DNA of 62,757 nucleotides, counting the filler, from Sanchytrium tribonematis (lineage: Eukaryota), in NCBI GenBank assembly GCA_018985235.1. It is 7 parts of 7 records of this genome, joined end to end, with 100 filler letters (N's around TTAATTAATTAA, not from the genome) between each part and the next. Parts side by side here need not be neighbours in the genome. Positions count along the whole stretch, not along the records: positions 5,758 to 11,409 come from JADGIG010000587.1; 6 more parts are not named here. One strand, given 5' to 3'. The notes below the pieces were generated by a model. The model worked only from the letters and a program-made list of their open reading frames with translations. It was not told where the DNA came from and did no database searches. Of the stretch, positions 5,658 to 57,153 are shown in pieces. Positions within the stretch are counted from its first letter, which is position 1, and each line of letters begins with the position of its first letter. The translations under genes were made by a program, and so were the position numbers.

Positions 5658-5757
5658 NNNNNNNNNNNNNNNNNNNNNNNNNNNNNNNNNNNNNNNNNNN
5701 NTTAATTAATTAANNNNNNNNNNNNNNNNNNNNNNNNNNNNNNNNNNNNNNNNNNNN
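5658..5757. other. Artificial contig linker
   Basis: N-run + TTAATTAATTAA (stops in six frames) + N-run, 100 nt. Confidence 0.97.
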
Positions 5758-6034: not shown

Positions 6035-6463
6035 GTGAAACAATTACGTCAAAATGGTTCTTTAATTTCACTTGATTACAATTACATTAAATCTCAATGT
6101 CCATTTATGGAATATCATCCCCAAGAAAGTCTCACAATGACTGAAAATGAGGTAAATTTAAAAGATTTATTTAAGATGATAAGTTTTGATAATAATGGCT
6201 CTGAGTTCTTCGCAATCATTAGCAATGAGACAAACAGGTACATGATGGATTGGTATAGAGATTCCATATGTTTGCGATGGCTGATCCTAGAGCAGGATAC
6301 GTTTACAACAGTAGCACTGGGTAGTACAAATGTGACAACTGCAATTATTTATAAAATTATTTCACAAACAAGTAATTTGAGCAATGAGCATGTAATTATT
6401 ACGGATAATTACTATTCTACACTTGAATTAGCAGCTATATTAGACAGAACTGATGGACTTTGA
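6035..6463 (+). pseudogene. piggyBac-like transposase fragment
   Basis: HVIITDNYYSTLELA resembles the piggyBac catalytic DNxxT/S motif; short and degenerate. Confidence 0.5.
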
Positions 6464-6797
6464 ACTTTAAATTTGCATTTTTTAATCTCTCAATCTCAGC
6501 ATTAACATCAAAAACAGAGTCGCTAACACTTAACTTTGGCTGATAGCCATATTGACGATGGGAAGGCATAAAAATGTTTTGAATTTCGTTGGAATTCATT
6601 TTACAGAACAATGTTTGAACGTGTGACGAGATACCGATGTATCTGTAATGGCTGAAAAAATCTGTACCGTCTCCCTTTTTGTACAATCCAATCAAATCAC
6701 TACATTTCAATAGATCGGGTGTTATACCCATTACAAGACACAAATTAAAATTTTTTAAAAGCATTTCTTTAAATGAGTTCGAGGCATCCCGCAACAT
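6435..6797 (-). pseudogene. Degenerate non-LTR reverse transcriptase N-terminal fragment
   Basis: GITPDLLKCSDLIGLYKKGD...HYRYIGI resembles LINE RT P..WK..I.PIYKKGD...NYRPISL. Confidence 0.6.
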
Positions 6798-6939
6798 CTC
6801 TGAATCTATTTCGTCAGATTTACTAGATTTGCCTTTGGAAAGTGATTTTAAGGCGTTCTTGAGGTTATAATAATATATTTATTAAGAAGTGCTGTGGAAT
6901 TATAATGACGAGTCACATTCCGGTGCAGTAATGAGTCAA

Positions 6940-9900
6940 TTATTGTCTTTGATATTGTAGAGTTGTCATTTTCTTCATTGATTTTAATTGATTAATAACA
7001 ACTGCTTCTCTGGTGCTCTTTAAATTAAAGTAAATTTCATCCCTGGTTTTATAGTCTTCTAAATTACATTCTTCTGTGAAATGATCTAGATTTTTGAATT
7101 CACGAAAACATTTAATACATACAGCTTTCTGCGCGCCCATTGATTTCCGTGGTAGTGATCCCGTAAGAAAGTCATCAATCAAATTTTGCAAATGAGAGGG
7201 GCTCTTTGATGCAAGACGGAGAAGAGTCGAATCACTCTTAAAGTTGCTGGCTCTCAAGTTGTTTGGCTGATTGTCCCAATATTGCCTCATCACATCCAAA
7301 TTATCTGCTTTGACAGCCTTTTTATCCACAAAATCCATAGGAATCACAGACATTCCGATTGAATGCAAACAGTTTTGACTGGTAGACATGGTACATATCC
7401 ATGTAGTTATTAATATATTGATGGTAGCGGTACTTGTTTTTATGGATCAGTTTTATCATTTTTACGCGATGGTCTTCAAGTTTTTCAATTCCTTCCATCG
7501 AATAATTCTCAATCGAGTAGGTATATATGGGAATGAGTACAGAGTTGTAGAACAGTTTAAAGGCAGATTTAAAGCAGAGATACTTCTTAGTCCATGCAAT
7601 TGTTTTAATCGCCAGTTCAGCTTTTTGGAGTTTTGCAGCCACATCATTTATAAAATCAATACCATCAGCCGATAACAGCACTCCAAGATACTTCATATTA
7701 TGCTGCTTGCCAATGACACATCCAGATCTCAGTGTAATACTAGCAATAAATTGATTTGATGTAATATATTGATATTTATGTGGATTAATGCGGAAACCAT
7801 GAATAGAGAGTGCTGTTGAGATATTATCAGTAATATTCTTCAGAATGGCATTGGATTTAGCCACAATTATGCAGTCATCCGCGTAAAAGAAAAAGGAGTA
7901 ATTCTCAGTATTTGGAAATAATGTCATGATCTTGTCTAGAACAAATGCAAAAAGCATAGGAGATAGAGTACCCCCTTGTGGTGTACCTCTCTCAAATGCA
8001 ATTGATGTCCTATTTAGATCACGAGGTAGATTAAATCTTTGACCACAAATTATTGTCTTTAGCAAATTAAGATCATGATCAACAAGGACAGAAGAAAGAT
8101 GAGTATAAATATCACAGTGACGCATCATATCAAATGCACTTGATAAGTCCAGAGCAATTGCATGAACTTCACCCGTTTCTTGTTTAAATTCTTTCATTTT
8201 TTCTAACACGGATTTGATTTGTGTGCTGCAGGATCTCTGTTGAGTAAATCCATGTTGGCGGACAGACGGGAATAAAAGGAATCTATAGTGGTTGTAATAT
8301 AGAAGCTTTTGATATGTCTTGAAGGCAATACTGATAAGATTGATGGGGCGATACCTTCCCGCCTCAGAAGTGTTGCCAGACTTGAATATCTCGACCATGC
8401 TAGATACTTCCCAAGAAGATGGCACTGTTCATTCCAGATAGCAACGTATTATAAGGTGATGAAGTATGGTATACCCAATATCAGGTAGATGTTTGTAAGG
8501 CAGACTTGGAAGAGTATCGCCACTAATTTTAGTTGAGTTGGTATGTTTAAAGGTGGAGGTTACAGCGTCTAAATTAAATATACTGTTGGCTATGTTCAAT
8601 GTAGCGGGAGTAATGGCCGTCGCATGTGTTGGCCAATTTCTTTCATTTGATGAGAAATGATTTCGTTGAAATTGAATGGCATCTGCCAGGTCACACTTGG
8701 TCATAATTGTGTTTCTATTAGCAGATCTTCGTAGCCGCCACATCTCAATAAACGCTTTACTCGCATTTCCAGTGGAATTTTGAAGATATTCTTGAAAAGA
8801 ATTTCTATCAGATTCTCCCTTGTTCTTTCTCATTTTATTAGTTATTACTTTGATCTGAAGCTTTAATCGTGCTCTCTTTCCGTTACTAATATTACGCTTA
8901 TTTAGTTTGCGCTTCATTTTATCTTTTCTTCTTTGAAGTGAGTCTTGTTGGCGATCAAACTCATTTTCATACCTCGAGTCCGTAATTTTAATGGTACCAA
9001 GCTCTTTGGCAGCTGTTTTTTCGCAAATACGTGTGAAGTGCTCCCAAATTTCATCAATCGAGTGGTTTTGAATATTATTGTTTAATTTTTCAAACTTTGA
9101 TTTAATTTGAAGTTTCCATTGGTCTTTCTTGTGATTATCAGATTTCAGTAAATTCCATCTAATATTGCCCATAATTGATAGTGGTGCATCTAAGACCTTC
9201 TCAATCAATATGGGGAAATGATCACTGGCAGTAAAAATATTTCGCAGGATGAATACCTCGCTTGTTAAGGCAATATCCAGCTGATGACACCAAACCTGAT
9301 CATTGATACGACTTCCTTGCTTCATTGTAGATTCAAAAGGAGTGTTTTTACAGACATATGAGTTTTCAGCCATTAAAGCTGCAAAGTATCTACCAGATCT
9401 ATCATGGCTATTTTCTAAAGATTGGATGACCATATTGACATCCCCAATAAACAACGATTTATTGTTAAATCCGATTCTCATTTCATCCACTATGGGATCT
9501 AATCGATTTTTATATCTGGGCGGGATGTATGTGAATGAAAAAGCATGATTATGAATCTTAATGGTGTGTATAAACTTTGTATGATTATTAACAATACATA
9601 CATCCTCAATTGGACGTAATATGTAGACAGCCTGTCTATCACATTCCAATTCTCCATGAAACTTTAAGAGGGAATAATTTGGCAATTTGATATCTTTGGG
9701 AGCTCTATATTCAGTAATATGTATAATATGTGGATTGTTTGCATCAATTAGTCGATGGATTTCACCCTCCAATTGCCCTGACCGGGACCCTCTTCCATTA
9801 TAAGAAATCACTCTAAATCTGTCATGTTGATCAGCTACTGAGCATTCAGAGCTTAAATACTCCTCTTGAGCACCACCTCGCAACTTCAATAGTAATGTAA

Positions 9901-11409
9901 CACTATTAACATACTCATCTAATTTTTCAAATGGCTTCAGATCGCGATTTCTAGCAATAAATCGTGTGTCATTTAAATCGAATTTGTATCCAATTCTGCC
10001 CAATTGATAGACTAGATCACGCATACGAGGTACTCTATAAGTATACAAAGGTATTGTTGACTCATTAGGTAGCTTAATAAAGACAAGTCTATTCAATTTG
10101 GGTTTCTTGAAAATTGATCTGCAAGGGTCAAAGAATTCTCTCTTGCGTTTATTAGAGGAGCAGGATTGTGGTGCATTCAATGTATTTATTGATTGATAAT
10201 GCTTTTGTATCCATCTCTGCTCCTCTAATTTAATATATAAATACTTGATAATCTCTCTTGAGTAGTAAATAGCAATGTCAATGATTTGAGTACCCGGGAT
10301 GGTCAATATTTTGTGATACTTATCAATCATTACAGTATCACCTGATCCTAAATCATATTCAATTGATTCATATTGAATTTCAGCATTTGGGCAATTAAAG
10401 ATTTTCTCCATTTCAGAGGTAATGGTTGCATTTTTATCGGTAATAATCACTCTCACTGGTTCATAGACAACATCATACGTATCCGGGTTGACAAAACTGA
10501 TATTAAAATTGTACTTTTTGGGCAATTTAATTTCATCCAAATTCACTGCTAAATGAGGATCCCACATTGATGATGCTGCTACTCTCACTACTGTCAGATG
10601 ACGTATCTGGAGCATCTAATGTCAGTTTACGACTCGATATGGCACTGCTAACTTTAGATTTGTCTCTTTTAAATCTATTGACAGAATATCCAAAACACTT
10701 GCTTTTAATGAGATCAGCTTGTCCAAACAAGCAGATTCGACTAAAATCATAGCAAGATGAGCTGTAATCAGAGTGATGGACATCAAATAAACTTTCCTCG
10801 TGCATTCTTTGGTAATTTGATATTGGTATTGGTATTGCATAGAAAAATAGAGGTGGAAAAGCTGATTTCCTCCAAATACTGACCATCCAAAATTTCATTC
10901 AATTTGATTGGATCATAAATATGCTTCCATTTGGGTACAACAGGTACTTTCAGAGTGAGCTCATTCATGTCACTGAATGTATATTCATTAATAAATTCAC
11001 TTCCTCTTACCAATCCATATAAAATCAAAGATGGGGCACGCACTGAAACAATTTGATTAATCAATTTGTTAAGAGTAAACACTCTTTTAGCAACTGGCAA
11101 ACCAACAAAAGAAGAGTGATTATTCGTGTCCAGTCCGATTAATTGGTTTATCAATGTCTCTAGAAGTAGTTCAAAGTTCATTTCTGAAATTTCCGAGCAT
11201 CTGTTGAGTTCATTGGAAGTATGTTGTTCAGAAAGGGAATATGGAGATGTGCATCCAATGTGGGTATTTCCACTTGCCAACTGACTAATTAAAACCTCAT
11301 AAGACTTGATGTGATCTTCATTTGGGCAAATAAATTGAAATCCTTCTTCTTTCAACTTTAAAAGTAATTGTAGGAATTCAGATTCATTTTTGATCTTTGT
11401 TGTGATCTT
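6940..11409 (-). mobile_element. Degenerate non-LTR retrotransposon: unknown N-terminal region, ubiquitin-like domain, AP endonuclease, RT, CCHC knuckle
   Basis: APE motifs SYNGRG, TE, YIPP, GDVN, SDHFPI; RT motifs YRPINL, QHGF, LDLSSAFD, GTPQGGTLSP, YADD, KYLG; CIKC..H....C; in-frame TGA at 8429-8431 and probable frameshifts near 7330-7390, 10540 and 10790; 5' end cut by linker. Confidence 0.9.
9872..10090 (-). other. Ubiquitin-like domain within the retrotransposon ORF
   Basis: 73 aa RLVFIKLPNESTIPL...DTRFIARNRDLKPFEKLDEY...VTLLLKLRGG aligns by eye end to end with ubiquitin. Confidence 0.75.
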
Positions 11410-11509
11410 NNNNNNNNNNNNNNNNNNNNNNNNNNNNNNNNNNNNNNNNNNNNTTAATTAATTAANNNNNNNNNNNNNNNNNNNNNNNNNNNNNNNNNNN
11501 NNNNNNNNN
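11410..11509. other. Artificial contig linker
   Basis: Same 100-nt linker. Confidence 0.97.
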
Positions 11510-39904: not shown

Positions 39905-40004
39905 NNNNNNNNNNNNNNNNNNNNNNNNNNNNNNNNNNNNNNNNNNNNTTAATTAATTAANNNNNNNNNNNNNNNNNNNNNNNNNNNNNNNNNNNNNNNN
40001 NNNN
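39905..40004. other. Artificial contig linker
   Basis: Same 100-nt linker. Confidence 0.97.
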
Positions 40005-41008
40005 GGATATCAAATATATTTCGAGGATTTCAGTCTTACAATGAATCTATGGACATTATCGACATCACAACCGACTCGTTCGAAATGAGAATTTACTCGT
40101 CGAAATCAAAGGCTATTAAAATGGTCGATGCTCAGCCAAGAACAATAGATCTTTACACTATGAAATTACCACAGTTGGATTTCACAGCAACGATGGTATC
40201 AATTATGGAATGTCAAAATTGTAAGAATATTCGCTGCAGCCTGTCAAAGTCTCACATTCTACAATTTAATCTTCCTGAATCCTTAAATCAATCTATAGAG
40301 GAACTTGCGAAGCAAATCACGGAAAAAGGACAAACTCGAATTGGAATAAGTTTGCAAGAATTATTTAAGTCATATGTCAAGCCGGAAATAATCGAAGACG
40401 TTCATTGTGAATATTGTACAATTCAGGATACTTTGAAATACCTGGAGGGTTTACTTGTAGATAATAGTCAGGAAGTCGTAAATGAATCTAACTCTTTGTT
40501 GAACAGCATCAAATGCTTCCCAGATACTGCTAGTATTGAAGACATTGACAAATTTATCAACGATAAAGCAGTGACCGATCATTTGTGGATAAACAAGGGC
40601 TACAAACATAGAAGACAACTTACACTGGGTCATCTTCCCAAGATACTGATAATCCAGTGTATGCGCAGCCAGTATACCAGTTTTGGTGAGCGGAAAAATA
40701 CAACTTTTGTATCGTTTCCTTTTGAACTGAGTCTGCATGAAATTGAACCCTTTTTATTTGCAAATTGCCTTAAGAAAGACAACAAGGTAGTTTCTATGGC
40801 CGAAAGTACTTACTGCCTCAAAAGTGTTGTGGAACATCAAGGTATCCACAATTATGGACACTATATCAGTTACAAATTTAATGTAAGTAATGATAAATGG
40901 TATCTTGTTAGCGACGATCAAGTCTTAGAAACTGATGCTACAACTGTCAGTTTGGCTGAGGCTTATCTCCTAATCTACGAAATGAGGTCTAAAACTGCCG
41001 ATAGCTAA
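40005..41008 (+). CDS. USP-family ubiquitin C-terminal hydrolase (5' truncated)
   Basis: LPKILIIQ, VSFP, His box VVEHQG...GHY, W..VSD, AYLLIYE. Confidence 0.85.
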
Positions 41009-45629: not shown

Positions 45630-45729
45630 NNNNNNNNNNNNNNNNNNNNNNNNNNNNNNNNNNNNNNNNNNNNTTAATTAATTAANNNNNNNNNNNNNNN
45701 NNNNNNNNNNNNNNNNNNNNNNNNNNNNN
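45630..45729. other. Artificial contig linker
   Basis: Same 100-nt linker. Confidence 0.97.
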
Positions 45730-51349: not shown

Positions 51350-51449
51350 NNNNNNNNNNNNNNNNNNNNNNNNNNNNNNNNNNNNNNNNNNNNTTAATTA
51401 ATTAANNNNNNNNNNNNNNNNNNNNNNNNNNNNNNNNNNNNNNNNNNNN
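51350..51449. other. Artificial contig linker
   Basis: Same 100-nt linker. Confidence 0.97.
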
Positions 51450-57053: not shown

Positions 57054-57153
57054 NNNNNNNNNNNNNNNNNNNNNNNNNNNNNNNNNNNNNNNNNNNNTTA
57101 ATTAATTAANNNNNNNNNNNNNNNNNNNNNNNNNNNNNNNNNNNNNNNNNNNN
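57054..57153. other. Artificial contig linker
   Basis: Same 100-nt linker. Confidence 0.97.

What the first reader, a model, noticed from the sequence alone, without database searches (positions are those of the whole stretch)
9200..10090. LINE polyprotein with a ubiquitin-like domain ending LRGG directly before the AP endonuclease
Seen: RLVFIKLPNESTIPL...DTRFIARNRDLKPFEKLDEYVNSVTLLLKLRGG (10090-9872) parallels ubiquitin (QIFVKTLTGKTITL...QRLIFAGKQLEDGRTLSDY...LHLVLRLRGG). The APE motif RVISYN starts about 18 aa later, in frame. Known: host DUBs cleave linear fusions after LRGG, pestiviruses use inserted ubiquitin as a processing signal, and some LINEs carry 2A-like peptides at this same pre-APE position. 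Inference: a retrotransposon family that uses a captured Ubl and a host deubiquitinase to release APE-RT (new N-terminus Ala) from a long single polyprotein. The released fragment would also end in a conjugatable GG.
Basis: partly seen in the sequence, partly recalled or inferred. Interest (0 to 1): 0.78.

Follow-up and report, generated by a model that had tools for sequence, protein, structure and literature searches.

The report
Jumping gene carrying a ubiquitin cut-site
This is a broken copy of a fungal jumping gene (a LINE) whose family keeps a much-changed ubiquitin-like domain ending in Gly-Gly just before its DNA-cutting enzyme, likely so that a host ubiquitin-trimming protease cuts the working enzyme free from one long protein, a trick known from some RNA viruses.

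Summary
Window 10090-9872 (minus strand) encodes 73 aa ending KLRGG, 19 residues before the APE endonuclease of a decayed LINE. Alone it hits no ubiquitin in Pfam or PDB. In 11 of 11 family members that cover the spot, the only Gly-Gly upstream of APE ends a matching domain (median 23% identity). Their profile finds ubiquitin across the PDB (E 4e-4 to 3e-3 for monomers). AlphaFold gives a beta-grasp fold (pLDDT 84.5) whose top Foldseek match is ubiquitin. The conserved tail is [RK]-x-[L/R]-G-G, not LRGG (1 of 11), and the residue after it varies. Best reading, inferred: a host deubiquitinase cuts after GG and frees APE-RT, doing the job that 2A peptides do at this position in other LINEs. Cleavage is untested, and ubiquitin's Ile44 surface is not kept. 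This copy is dead (stop, frameshifts). Seven paper searches found no description. The scan's earlier notes report related LINE-ubiquitin layouts on other DNA (unchecked).

The parts
9872..10090 (-). Divergent ubiquitin-like (beta-grasp) domain, 73 aa, ending K-L-R-G-G
   Evidence: Family profile hits ubiquitin over its full length; AF2 pLDDT 84.5, beta-beta-alpha-beta-beta; Foldseek top match ubiquitin E 1.1e-5, TM 0.72; VIA Z 9.4, rmsd 2.4-2.5 over 73-76 residues to ubiquitin chains
9869..9877 (-). Gly-Gly and the next residue (Ala): predicted cleavage site GG|A
   Evidence: Gly-Gly is the only GG upstream of APE in 11 of 11 members and is invariant in the whole-protein alignment A1; cleavage is inferred
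9815..9871 (-). 19-aa acidic linker between GG and APE (14-102 aa, acidic, in relatives)
9203..9814 (-). APE-type (EEP) endonuclease with N, E, Y, D-x-N, D and SDH motifs present
   Evidence: Motifs located. No Pfam or PDB hit for the window's own domain. It aligns at 41% (E 1.9e-72) to P0038, which passes the Pfam PF14529 cut-off; P0006 passes PF03372
8429..8431 (-). In-frame TGA that breaks this copy between APE and RT
   Evidence: Sequence; one contig of run X1 covers it without differences (7619-8771); relatives read through with C, Q or G; TGA is a normal stop in host ORFs (8 of 48 long ORFs)
7325..8428 (-). Non-LTR reverse transcriptase (YADD at 7885) and thumb
   Evidence: Pfam RVT_1 E 7.6e-33; best PDB hits R2 and L1 ORF2p; 50% identical to intact P0002
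6940..7368 (-). C-terminal domain in a shifted frame (frameshift near 7349-7368) with a C-x2-C-x7-H-x4-C knuckle at 7119-7066; stop at 6942-6940
   Evidence: tblastn of P0002 and P0040 switches frame here; motif position
6868..6939 (-). Short 3' UTR ending in AATAAA and a TA-rich run; likely 3' end of the element
   Evidence: Sequence; loose ends of other contigs at 6854 and 6865; inference
10276..10516 (-). Conserved upstream domain shared with P0002, P0003, P0042, P0048, P0053; possibly a second beta-grasp domain without GG (lead only)
   Evidence: blastp links E 1e-3 to 1e-17; ESM Atlas 0.84-0.87 to Rad60-SLD/ubiquitin clusters for the P0002 copy, under the 0.9 line; no hhalign match to ubiquitin
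10563..10808 (-). Upstream coding piece in another frame, joined to the Ubl frame in a sister copy
   Evidence: P0051 (about 90% identical) reads through both pieces; 1-nt difference at 10561 in an X1 contig
10786..11406 (-). Further upstream coding piece (207 aa), cut by the contig end; likely the same long ORF
   Evidence: An X1 contig carries about 224 extra bases at 10812, which would put the frames in register (record 7; my arithmetic, inserted bases not seen); no family or significant blast hit
6435..6878 (-). Fragment of a second, different LINE RT, probably the target into which this element inserted
   Evidence: blastp best hit 28% to P0007, E 4e-11, outside the Ubl family; no Pfam hit; loose ends in X1

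Best explanation
This is a dead copy of an APE-type LINE family of sanchytrid-type fungi that carries a divergent ubiquitin-fold domain ending in Gly-Gly in front of its endonuclease, and in intact elements a host deubiquitinase likely cuts after the Gly-Gly to release the endonuclease-reverse transcriptase from one long precursor. Shown: the fold, the ubiquitin ancestry, the invariant GG, a basic residue at ubiquitin position 72, and continuous frames through the site in intact relatives. Inferred: (1) the precursor is made as one protein; (2) a USP-type DUB binds the domain and cuts GG|X; (3) because the surface is degenerate and the tail is often x-L-G-G, only one or a few tolerant DUBs would do so, as for FUBI; (4) the cut separates an N-terminal part from an APE-RT that starts with a small residue and an acidic linker, doing the job that separate ORFs or 2A peptides do in other LINEs.
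For: GG is the single GG upstream of APE in 11 of 11 members. The domain is otherwise at median 23% pairwise identity, and GG gives the only invariant columns (segments were cut at the GG, so and alignment A1 are the unbiased tests). Per-protein chance of such a GG is 0.06-0.26 (kin are not independent). Position 72 is R/K in 10 of 11; core hydrophobic positions are kept. PMC4822132 (passages): DUBs depend heavily on tail residues P6-P1, and USP21 binds Arg72 through an invariant Glu. No member has Pro after GG (0 of 11); that Pro blocks DUB cleavage is recalled. Precedent for a divergent Ubl cut by selected host DUBs: FUBI, 36% identical to ubiquitin, RXLGG tail, cut by USP16/USP36 (PMC10611586 passages and section 10; PMC8354635 passages). 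[RK]xLGG occurs in 6 of 11 members. Precedent in a polyprotein: pestivirus ubiquitin inserts cut by cellular hydrolases (PMC8310069 passages). Precedent for the position: 2A peptides directly upstream of APE in single-ORF LINEs (PMC3708506 passages); P0032 (Tbingi) shows such a motif there.
Against: No cleavage was tested. Identity to ubiquitin is only 13-24%, and the Ile44 patch residues (L8, I44, H68, V70) and K48 vary freely. PMC10611586 section 10 shows that a changed Ile44 patch and a non-polar residue before GG shut out most USPs. The window's own domain scores only 8.0 bits against a profile of the other ten, and 1.7 bits without the tail. The tail varies (LPGG, GCGG in two members). 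7 of the 11 sequences are the window or come from one species' data set. A more abundant sister copy (P0051; X1 depth 263 at 10200-10328) leaves the element's sequence at 10200 and stops before the Ubl. Only P0006 and P0042 show long continuous upstream frames; P0002 and P0003 start about 260-280 residues before the GG end.
Confidence: 0.6

Rival explanations
1. The domain is not cut. It works as a ubiquitin-like docking module or fusion degron that targets ORF2p to the proteasome, Cdc48 or ubiquitin-binding partners and keeps its level low.
For: Structural neighbours include uncleaved UBL domains (TINCR Z 10.6, BAT3 9.4, OASL 9.6, Dsk2 8.8). The divergent surface fits poorly with standard DUB binding. 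A possible second Ubl without GG lies upstream.
Against: Uncleaved UBL domains usually lose the GG (recalled), whereas GG and the basic P5 are the best-kept features here. The Ile44 patch that ubiquitin receptors bind is what has decayed.
Confidence: 0.14
2. The site is cut, but by a protease of the element itself (an OTU, ULP or Josephin-type domain in the unassigned N-terminal part) or by a host ULP rather than a DUB.
For: The 600-800 upstream residues of P0006 and P0042 have no assigned domain. A private protease would explain free drift of the Ubl surface. An earlier scan note reports a dinoflagellate LINE with its own OTU and LRGG sites (e1-7625591, unchecked). NeSL elements carry Ulp1 (recalled). 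ESM Atlas also lists Rad60-SLD clusters.
Against: Pfam, NCBIfam and PDB sequence searches find no protease in P0006, P0042, P0048, P0051 or the window's upstream pieces. The block next to the Ubl has no invariant Cys or His. P0002 and P0003 have only about 200 residues before the Ubl. The sequence profile picks ubiquitin, not SUMO.
Confidence: 0.14
3. The GG is kept because the released N-terminal piece is activated by the host E1 and conjugated to targets; release of APE-RT is a by-product.
For: GG plus R/K at position 72, the residue that separates ubiquitin from NEDD8.
Against: Surface residues needed by E1 and E2 are not kept, the Ubl would carry a long N-terminal extension, and nothing tested here bears on conjugation.
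Confidence: 0.07
4. The domain is a functionless relic of an old ubiquitin capture, or the GG is only a flexible hinge.
For: Low sequence conservation; the window copy is dead; a sister copy lacks the domain.
Against: Fold core, GG and basic P5 are kept across elements whose RTs are only 34-50% identical, while the linker after GG varies from 14 to 102 aa.
Confidence: 0.05

Closest known systems
2A-bearing single-ORF LINEs (L1Tc, Ingi, some CR1, L2, Rex1, Crack; PMC3708506, PMC3894237)
   Same: A short processing element in the N-terminal region, often right before APE, that splits one ORF into two products.
   Different: 2A is a ribosome-skipping peptide of 18-30 aa, 40-80 aa from the N-terminus. 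Here it is a folded 73-aa ubiquitin domain with up to about 790 residues before it, predicted to be cut after translation; no NPGP motif lies in the linkers.
Ubiquitin inserts of cytopathic pestiviruses (BVDV Osloss, CP Rit; PMC8310069, PMC13517609)
   Same: Ubiquitin inside a mobile element's polyprotein, directly before the replicative enzyme, cut by host hydrolases.
   Different: Those are sporadic, recent captures of near-intact ubiquitin. This one is fixed across a whole family and has drifted to 13-24% identity.
FUBI-eS30 (FAU) processed by USP36/USP16 (PMC8354635, PMC10611586)
   Same: Divergent ubiquitin-like domain fused N-terminally to a functional protein, with a basic P5 and often Leu before GG.
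   Different: FUBI is a host ribosomal-protein leader at the very N-terminus. The family profile prefers ubiquitin, FUBI is absent from the 60 rows shown, and the model has 9% identity to FUBI in 8bs3 (Z 8.6). A shared tail is a likeness, not shown ancestry.
APE-type LINEs in general (human L1 ORF2p; fungal Tad and L1 clades, recalled)
   Same: APE, RT and C-terminal CCHC knuckle in this order; 3' A/T-rich end.
   Different: The Ubl-GG module and a long fused upstream region. The RT forms its own long-stemmed group (8 rows, SH-aLRT 100, stem 1.8) apart from 31 other RTs; clade name not established.
Protease-bearing non-LTR elements (NeSL with Ulp1, Dualen with Josephin; recalled)
   Same: Link between a LINE polyprotein and the ubiquitin/SUMO protease world.
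   Different: Those carry the protease; this family carries the substrate-like domain, and no protease was found.

Membership tests
APE-type non-LTR retrotransposon (LINE) | APE endonuclease N-terminal to RT | tested here: met
   Motifs in order; homologue P0038 (41%, E 1.9e-72) and P0006 pass Pfam cut-offs; the window's domain alone has no Pfam or PDB hit
APE-type non-LTR retrotransposon (LINE) | Non-LTR-type RT | tested here: met
   RVT_1 E 7.6e-33; nearest solved structures R2 and L1 ORF2p
APE-type non-LTR retrotransposon (LINE) | C-terminal CCHC knuckle and A-rich 3' end | tested here: met
   Knuckle at 7119-7066; AATAAA and TA-rich run before the next element; read from the sequence
APE-type non-LTR retrotransposon (LINE) | Target-site duplication and 5' end | not testable with these tools
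   The contig ends at 11409 inside the element; no whole genome is held
Named LINE clade (Tad, L1, Ingi, CR1 and others) | RT groups with reference members of the clade | tested here: inconclusive
   Quick tree of 39 RTs (P0038, P0039, P0041, P0042 left out for lack of a long RT): the family is one group, sister unresolved, almost no labelled references
Processed ubiquitin-like proteins (ubiquitin, NEDD8, FUBI type) | Beta-grasp fold | tested here: met
Processed ubiquitin-like proteins (ubiquitin, NEDD8, FUBI type) | Gly-Gly at ubiquitin positions 75-76 | tested here: met
   11 of 11, in register with ubiquitin
Processed ubiquitin-like proteins (ubiquitin, NEDD8, FUBI type) | Proteolytic processing after GG | not testable with these tools
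   Needs an experiment
Processed ubiquitin-like proteins (ubiquitin, NEDD8, FUBI type) | E1-dependent conjugation | not testable with these tools
   Needs an experiment
Ubiquitin proper | Near-invariant sequence with LRLRGG tail and Ile44 patch | tested here: not met
   13-24% identity; tail and patch vary; no Pfam PF00240 hit for 0 of 11 members
FUBI | RXLGG tail and fusion to ribosomal protein eS30 | tested here: not met
   Window tail is KLRGG; strict RxLGG in 4 of 11; the fusion partner is APE-RT
2A-bearing LINEs | DxExNPGP motif before APE | tested here: not met
   Absent from the 11 tails and linkers printed
Protease-encoding LINEs (Ulp1, OTU, Josephin) | Papain-fold protease domain in the ORF | tested here: inconclusive
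   No hit in Pfam, NCBIfam or PDB sequence searches; upstream regions were not folded and the window's 5' end is missing

The most novel reading that the evidence does not exclude
A fungal LINE lineage captured host ubiquitin long ago and remodelled it into a private processing signal: fold, Arg72 and Gly-Gly kept, signalling surface shed, tail often FUBI-like. One selective host deubiquitinase then licenses maturation of the endonuclease-reverse transcriptase, so retrotransposition depends on, and can be timed or placed by, a host DUB. This would be a third way, beside two ORFs and 2A skipping, for LINEs to split their protein.
Probability: 0.4. Interest if true: 0.8.

Novelty: new variant of a known kind. 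Interest (0 to 1): 0.66.

Why it matters
How LINEs make and limit their endonuclease-reverse transcriptase is a standing question; the known answers are reinitiation on a second ORF and 2A skipping. A family-wide ubiquitin-derived GG site at the same border points to host proteolysis as another answer and names a host factor class that could gate transposition. It is directly testable with a GG versus AA reporter in yeast. It also offers a natural set of very divergent ubiquitin folds for asking what a DUB minimally needs. The window copy itself is dead, and the family is so far seen in one named fungal species plus four unnamed contigs, which limits the reach.

Tried and rejected
Single-sequence tests of the 73 aa found no ubiquitin in Pfam or PDB. 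A 4-sequence profile also failed; 11 sequences were needed. Pfam scans of each of the 11 segments gave only RBD and YceI at E 0.14. Single-sequence AlphaFold of Ubl+APE was useless (pLDDT 29.7). Word-index searches with the 728-aa ORF found only itself and nothing among shorter proteins. Metagenome scans found no family member (118 pattern matches, none confirmed; 56 distant RT loci at 20-35%). The family Ubl profile found nothing in those 56 loci, the 31 distant LINE proteins or the rest of the window (best E 0.13). My motif regex located the APE start in only 4 of those 31 proteins (1 of 4 had a GG upstream), so that control is uninformative. A second copy in run X1 keeps LRGG with a synonymous change among 6 listed of 9 differences in 127 bases; too few changes to show selection, so not counted. 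No RNA holder listed. The upstream domain as a second ubiquitin: ESM scores under 0.9, no hhalign match; left as a lead. A by-eye likeness between the window's 5' piece and P0042 was not confirmed by blastp. TGA readthrough or recoding at 8429 rejected: TGA ends 8 of 48 long ORFs in the window and relatives have ordinary residues there. No complex prediction was run, since the responsible DUB is unknown. The careful RT tree did not finish; the quick one was used. Paper searches without a description of this layout: 0 papers; listings off-topic; PMC10318531 has no transposon terms. The library lacks most subscription journals and Repbase Reports.
Full report
Setting. The window is a gene-dense, AT-rich eukaryotic sequence made of contigs joined by artificial N-linkers; the finding lies on a 5.65 kb contig between linkers at 5658-5757 and 11410-11509. 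No whole genome is held. Of 15 relatives looked up, 10 are filed by EukProt under Sanchytrium tribonematis, among them P0051, about 90% identical to the window's upstream part. I infer a sanchytrid fungus as host.

The observation. The quoted 73 aa lie at 10090-9872 on the minus strand, in a frame open from 10615 to 8429. LRGG is at 9883-9872, the only LRGG in the window's six frames. RVISYN follows after 19 residues, and the other APE motifs are present in order. Downstream lie a non-LTR RT (Pfam RVT_1 E 7.6e-33; R2 and L1 ORF2p as nearest structures), a CCHC knuckle at 7119-7066 and a short A/T-rich 3' end. The copy is dead: TGA at 8431-8429, a frameshift near 7349-7368, and frameshifts upstream. 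Contigs of the one public run that holds this DNA confirm the stop and show pieces of other copies; 88 contigs were laid, 41 of them 99% or more alike.

One sequence is not enough. The 73 aa alone hit nothing in Pfam and no ubiquitin in PDB. The ESM Atlas gave ubiquitin and Rad60-SLD clusters at 0.90-0.91, below unnamed clusters at 0.92: a lead. An RT search (36 hits, five at 34-50% identity) and a full HMMER search with Ubl+APE (18 hits) gave the family. Eleven sequences, the window included, cover the region before APE. The others start inside APE or later (P0004, P0005, P0040, P0044-P0047, P0049, P0052) or end before it (P0051, P0054); P0050 and P0055 were dropped as near-copies of P0053. 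In 11 of 11 there is exactly one Gly-Gly upstream of APE, even in 968 and 796 upstream residues (P0006, P0042), and it ends a segment that aligns with the window's domain. GG is also invariant in an unguided whole-protein alignment of four members.

It is ubiquitin-derived. The 11-segment profile, run on 177,635 PDB sequences, gave 232 hits at E<=10. All 60 shown are ubiquitin, polyubiquitin, ubiquitin-ribosomal fusions or engineered variants (one 79-aa chain is labelled Uba1), with monomers at E 4e-4 to 9e-3 and profile positions 6-77 on ubiquitin 2-76. Controls, using 95 distinct ubiquitins read from viral contigs: median 18.1 bits, against a maximum of 5.5 for 101 GG-ending decoys and 14.6 for 1000 shuffles that keep the tail. 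Without the last 8 residues: 13.9 against 5.2 and 7.1. hhalign gives probability 92.5%, E 4.8e-7, falling to 74% without the tail. Against this, the window's own segment scores only 8.0 bits on a profile of the other ten. AlphaFold with the 11-row alignment gives pLDDT 84.5 and a beta-beta-alpha-beta-beta order. Foldseek's top rows are ubiquitin (E 1.1e-5, TM about 0.7). The wide VIA search lists beta-grasp proteins at the top: TINCR Z 10.6, ISG15 9.8, ubiquitin chains 9.4-9.7 (rmsd 2.4-2.7 over 73-76 residues), FUBI 8.6, SUMO 7.9-8.7; these are largely tied, so the fold does not pick the parent, while the sequence profile picks ubiquitin.

What is conserved. On ubiquitin numbering, core hydrophobic positions are kept, position 72 is R or K in 10 of 11, and G75-G76 in 11 of 11. 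Position 74 is Leu in 7, Arg in 2, Pro and Cys in one each. L8, I44, K48, H68 and V70 vary. Identity to ubiquitin is 13-24% and within the family median 23%, against 40% for the start of APE. The residue after GG is Ser 4, Ala 2, Thr 2, Phe 2, Asn 1, never Pro, and an acidic linker of 14-102 aa follows.

One long ORF. P0006 runs 1952 aa from far upstream through Ubl, APE, RT and knuckle; P0042 has 704 residues up to the GG end; P0002 and P0003 are intact from about 260-280 residues before it. For the window, P0051 joins the two frames either side of 10561, and an X1 contig with about 224 extra bases at 10812 would put the 5' frame in register (inserted bases not seen). P0051 and an abundant X1 contig leave the element's sequence at 10200, before the Ubl: a rearranged sister that lacks the domain. 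The upstream regions have no assigned domain and no detected protease. I do not know whether the EukProt records are transcripts, so I claim nothing on expression.

Mechanism. Keeping the fold, the basic P5 and the GG while shedding the signalling surface is the pattern expected of a protease substrate. PMC4822132 (passages) says DUBs depend heavily on tail residues P6-P1 and that USP21 binds Arg72. PMC10611586 (passages and section 10) and PMC8354635 (passages) show that FUBI, 36% identical to ubiquitin with an RXLGG tail, is cut off its fusion partner by USP16/USP36 while other USPs are shut out. That both supports feasibility and warns that cleavage here would need a tolerant DUB; this domain is further from ubiquitin than FUBI is. 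PMC8310069 and PMC13517609 (passages) give the pestivirus precedent. PMC3708506 (passages) and PMC3894237 (first third of the text) place 2A peptides before APE in single-ORF LINEs. I put host-DUB cleavage at 0.6, an uncut docking or degron module at 0.14, an element-encoded or ULP protease at 0.14, conjugation as the purpose at 0.07, and a relic at 0.05. Recalled and untested: Pro after GG blocks DUBs; uncleaved UBL domains lose GG; NeSL and Dualen carry Ulp1 and Josephin proteases; fungal clade names.

Novelty. Seven searches of the paper library found no description of a ubiquitin-GG module before APE in a LINE; the library lacks most subscription journals and Repbase, and I opened no supplements, of which the RT reference set of PMC3708506 bears on the clade. 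Earlier notes of this scan describe related layouts on other DNA: a dinoflagellate LINE with OTU and LRGG sites, RLE-type elements with Ubls after the endonuclease, and a domesticated LINE nuclease with a front Ubl. They are unchecked and are not counted as support. Verdict: real feature, new variant of a known kind, mechanism inferred, interest 0.66.

Noticed in passing
window 6435-6878 (-): Fragment of a second, unrelated LINE RT directly after this element's 3' end; contigs of run X1 continue it in both directions elsewhere (loose ends at 6448, 6465, 6854, 6865), so this looks like a nested insertion.
   Followed up: partly
window 9884-10047: One X1 contig (depth 52) joins 10047 back to 9884 with 5 bases between: a likely tandem duplication of most of the Ubl in another copy, out of frame.
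   Followed up: no
window 10200; P0051: A more abundant sister copy leaves the element's sequence at 10200 and stops soon after, before the Ubl; possibly a deleted, non-autonomous derivative.
   Followed up: partly
window 10276-10516 (-); P0002 residues 48-140: A conserved domain upstream of the Ubl-GG may be a second beta-grasp without GG (ESM 0.84-0.87; no hhalign support).
   Followed up: partly
window 40007-41008 (+): Host USP-family deubiquitinase gene fragment cut by a contig join (Pfam UCH E 1.1e-25); no link to the LINE is shown. My note gave the wrong strand; it is plus.
   Followed up: partly
P0032 residues 68-90: An Ingi element of Perkinsela among the RT hits has a 2A-like motif directly before its APE, the same position as the Ubl-GG here.
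   Followed up: no
window 5658-5757, 11410-11509, 39905-40004, 45630-45729, 51350-51449, 57054-57153: Six artificial contig joins (44 N, a 12-base all-frame-stop linker, 44 N); genes either side are not neighbours.
   Followed up: yes
window 7694-8657 and 8813-8974: X1 contigs at half depth (about 53) skip these stretches: internally deleted copies or alleles of the element.
   Followed up: no
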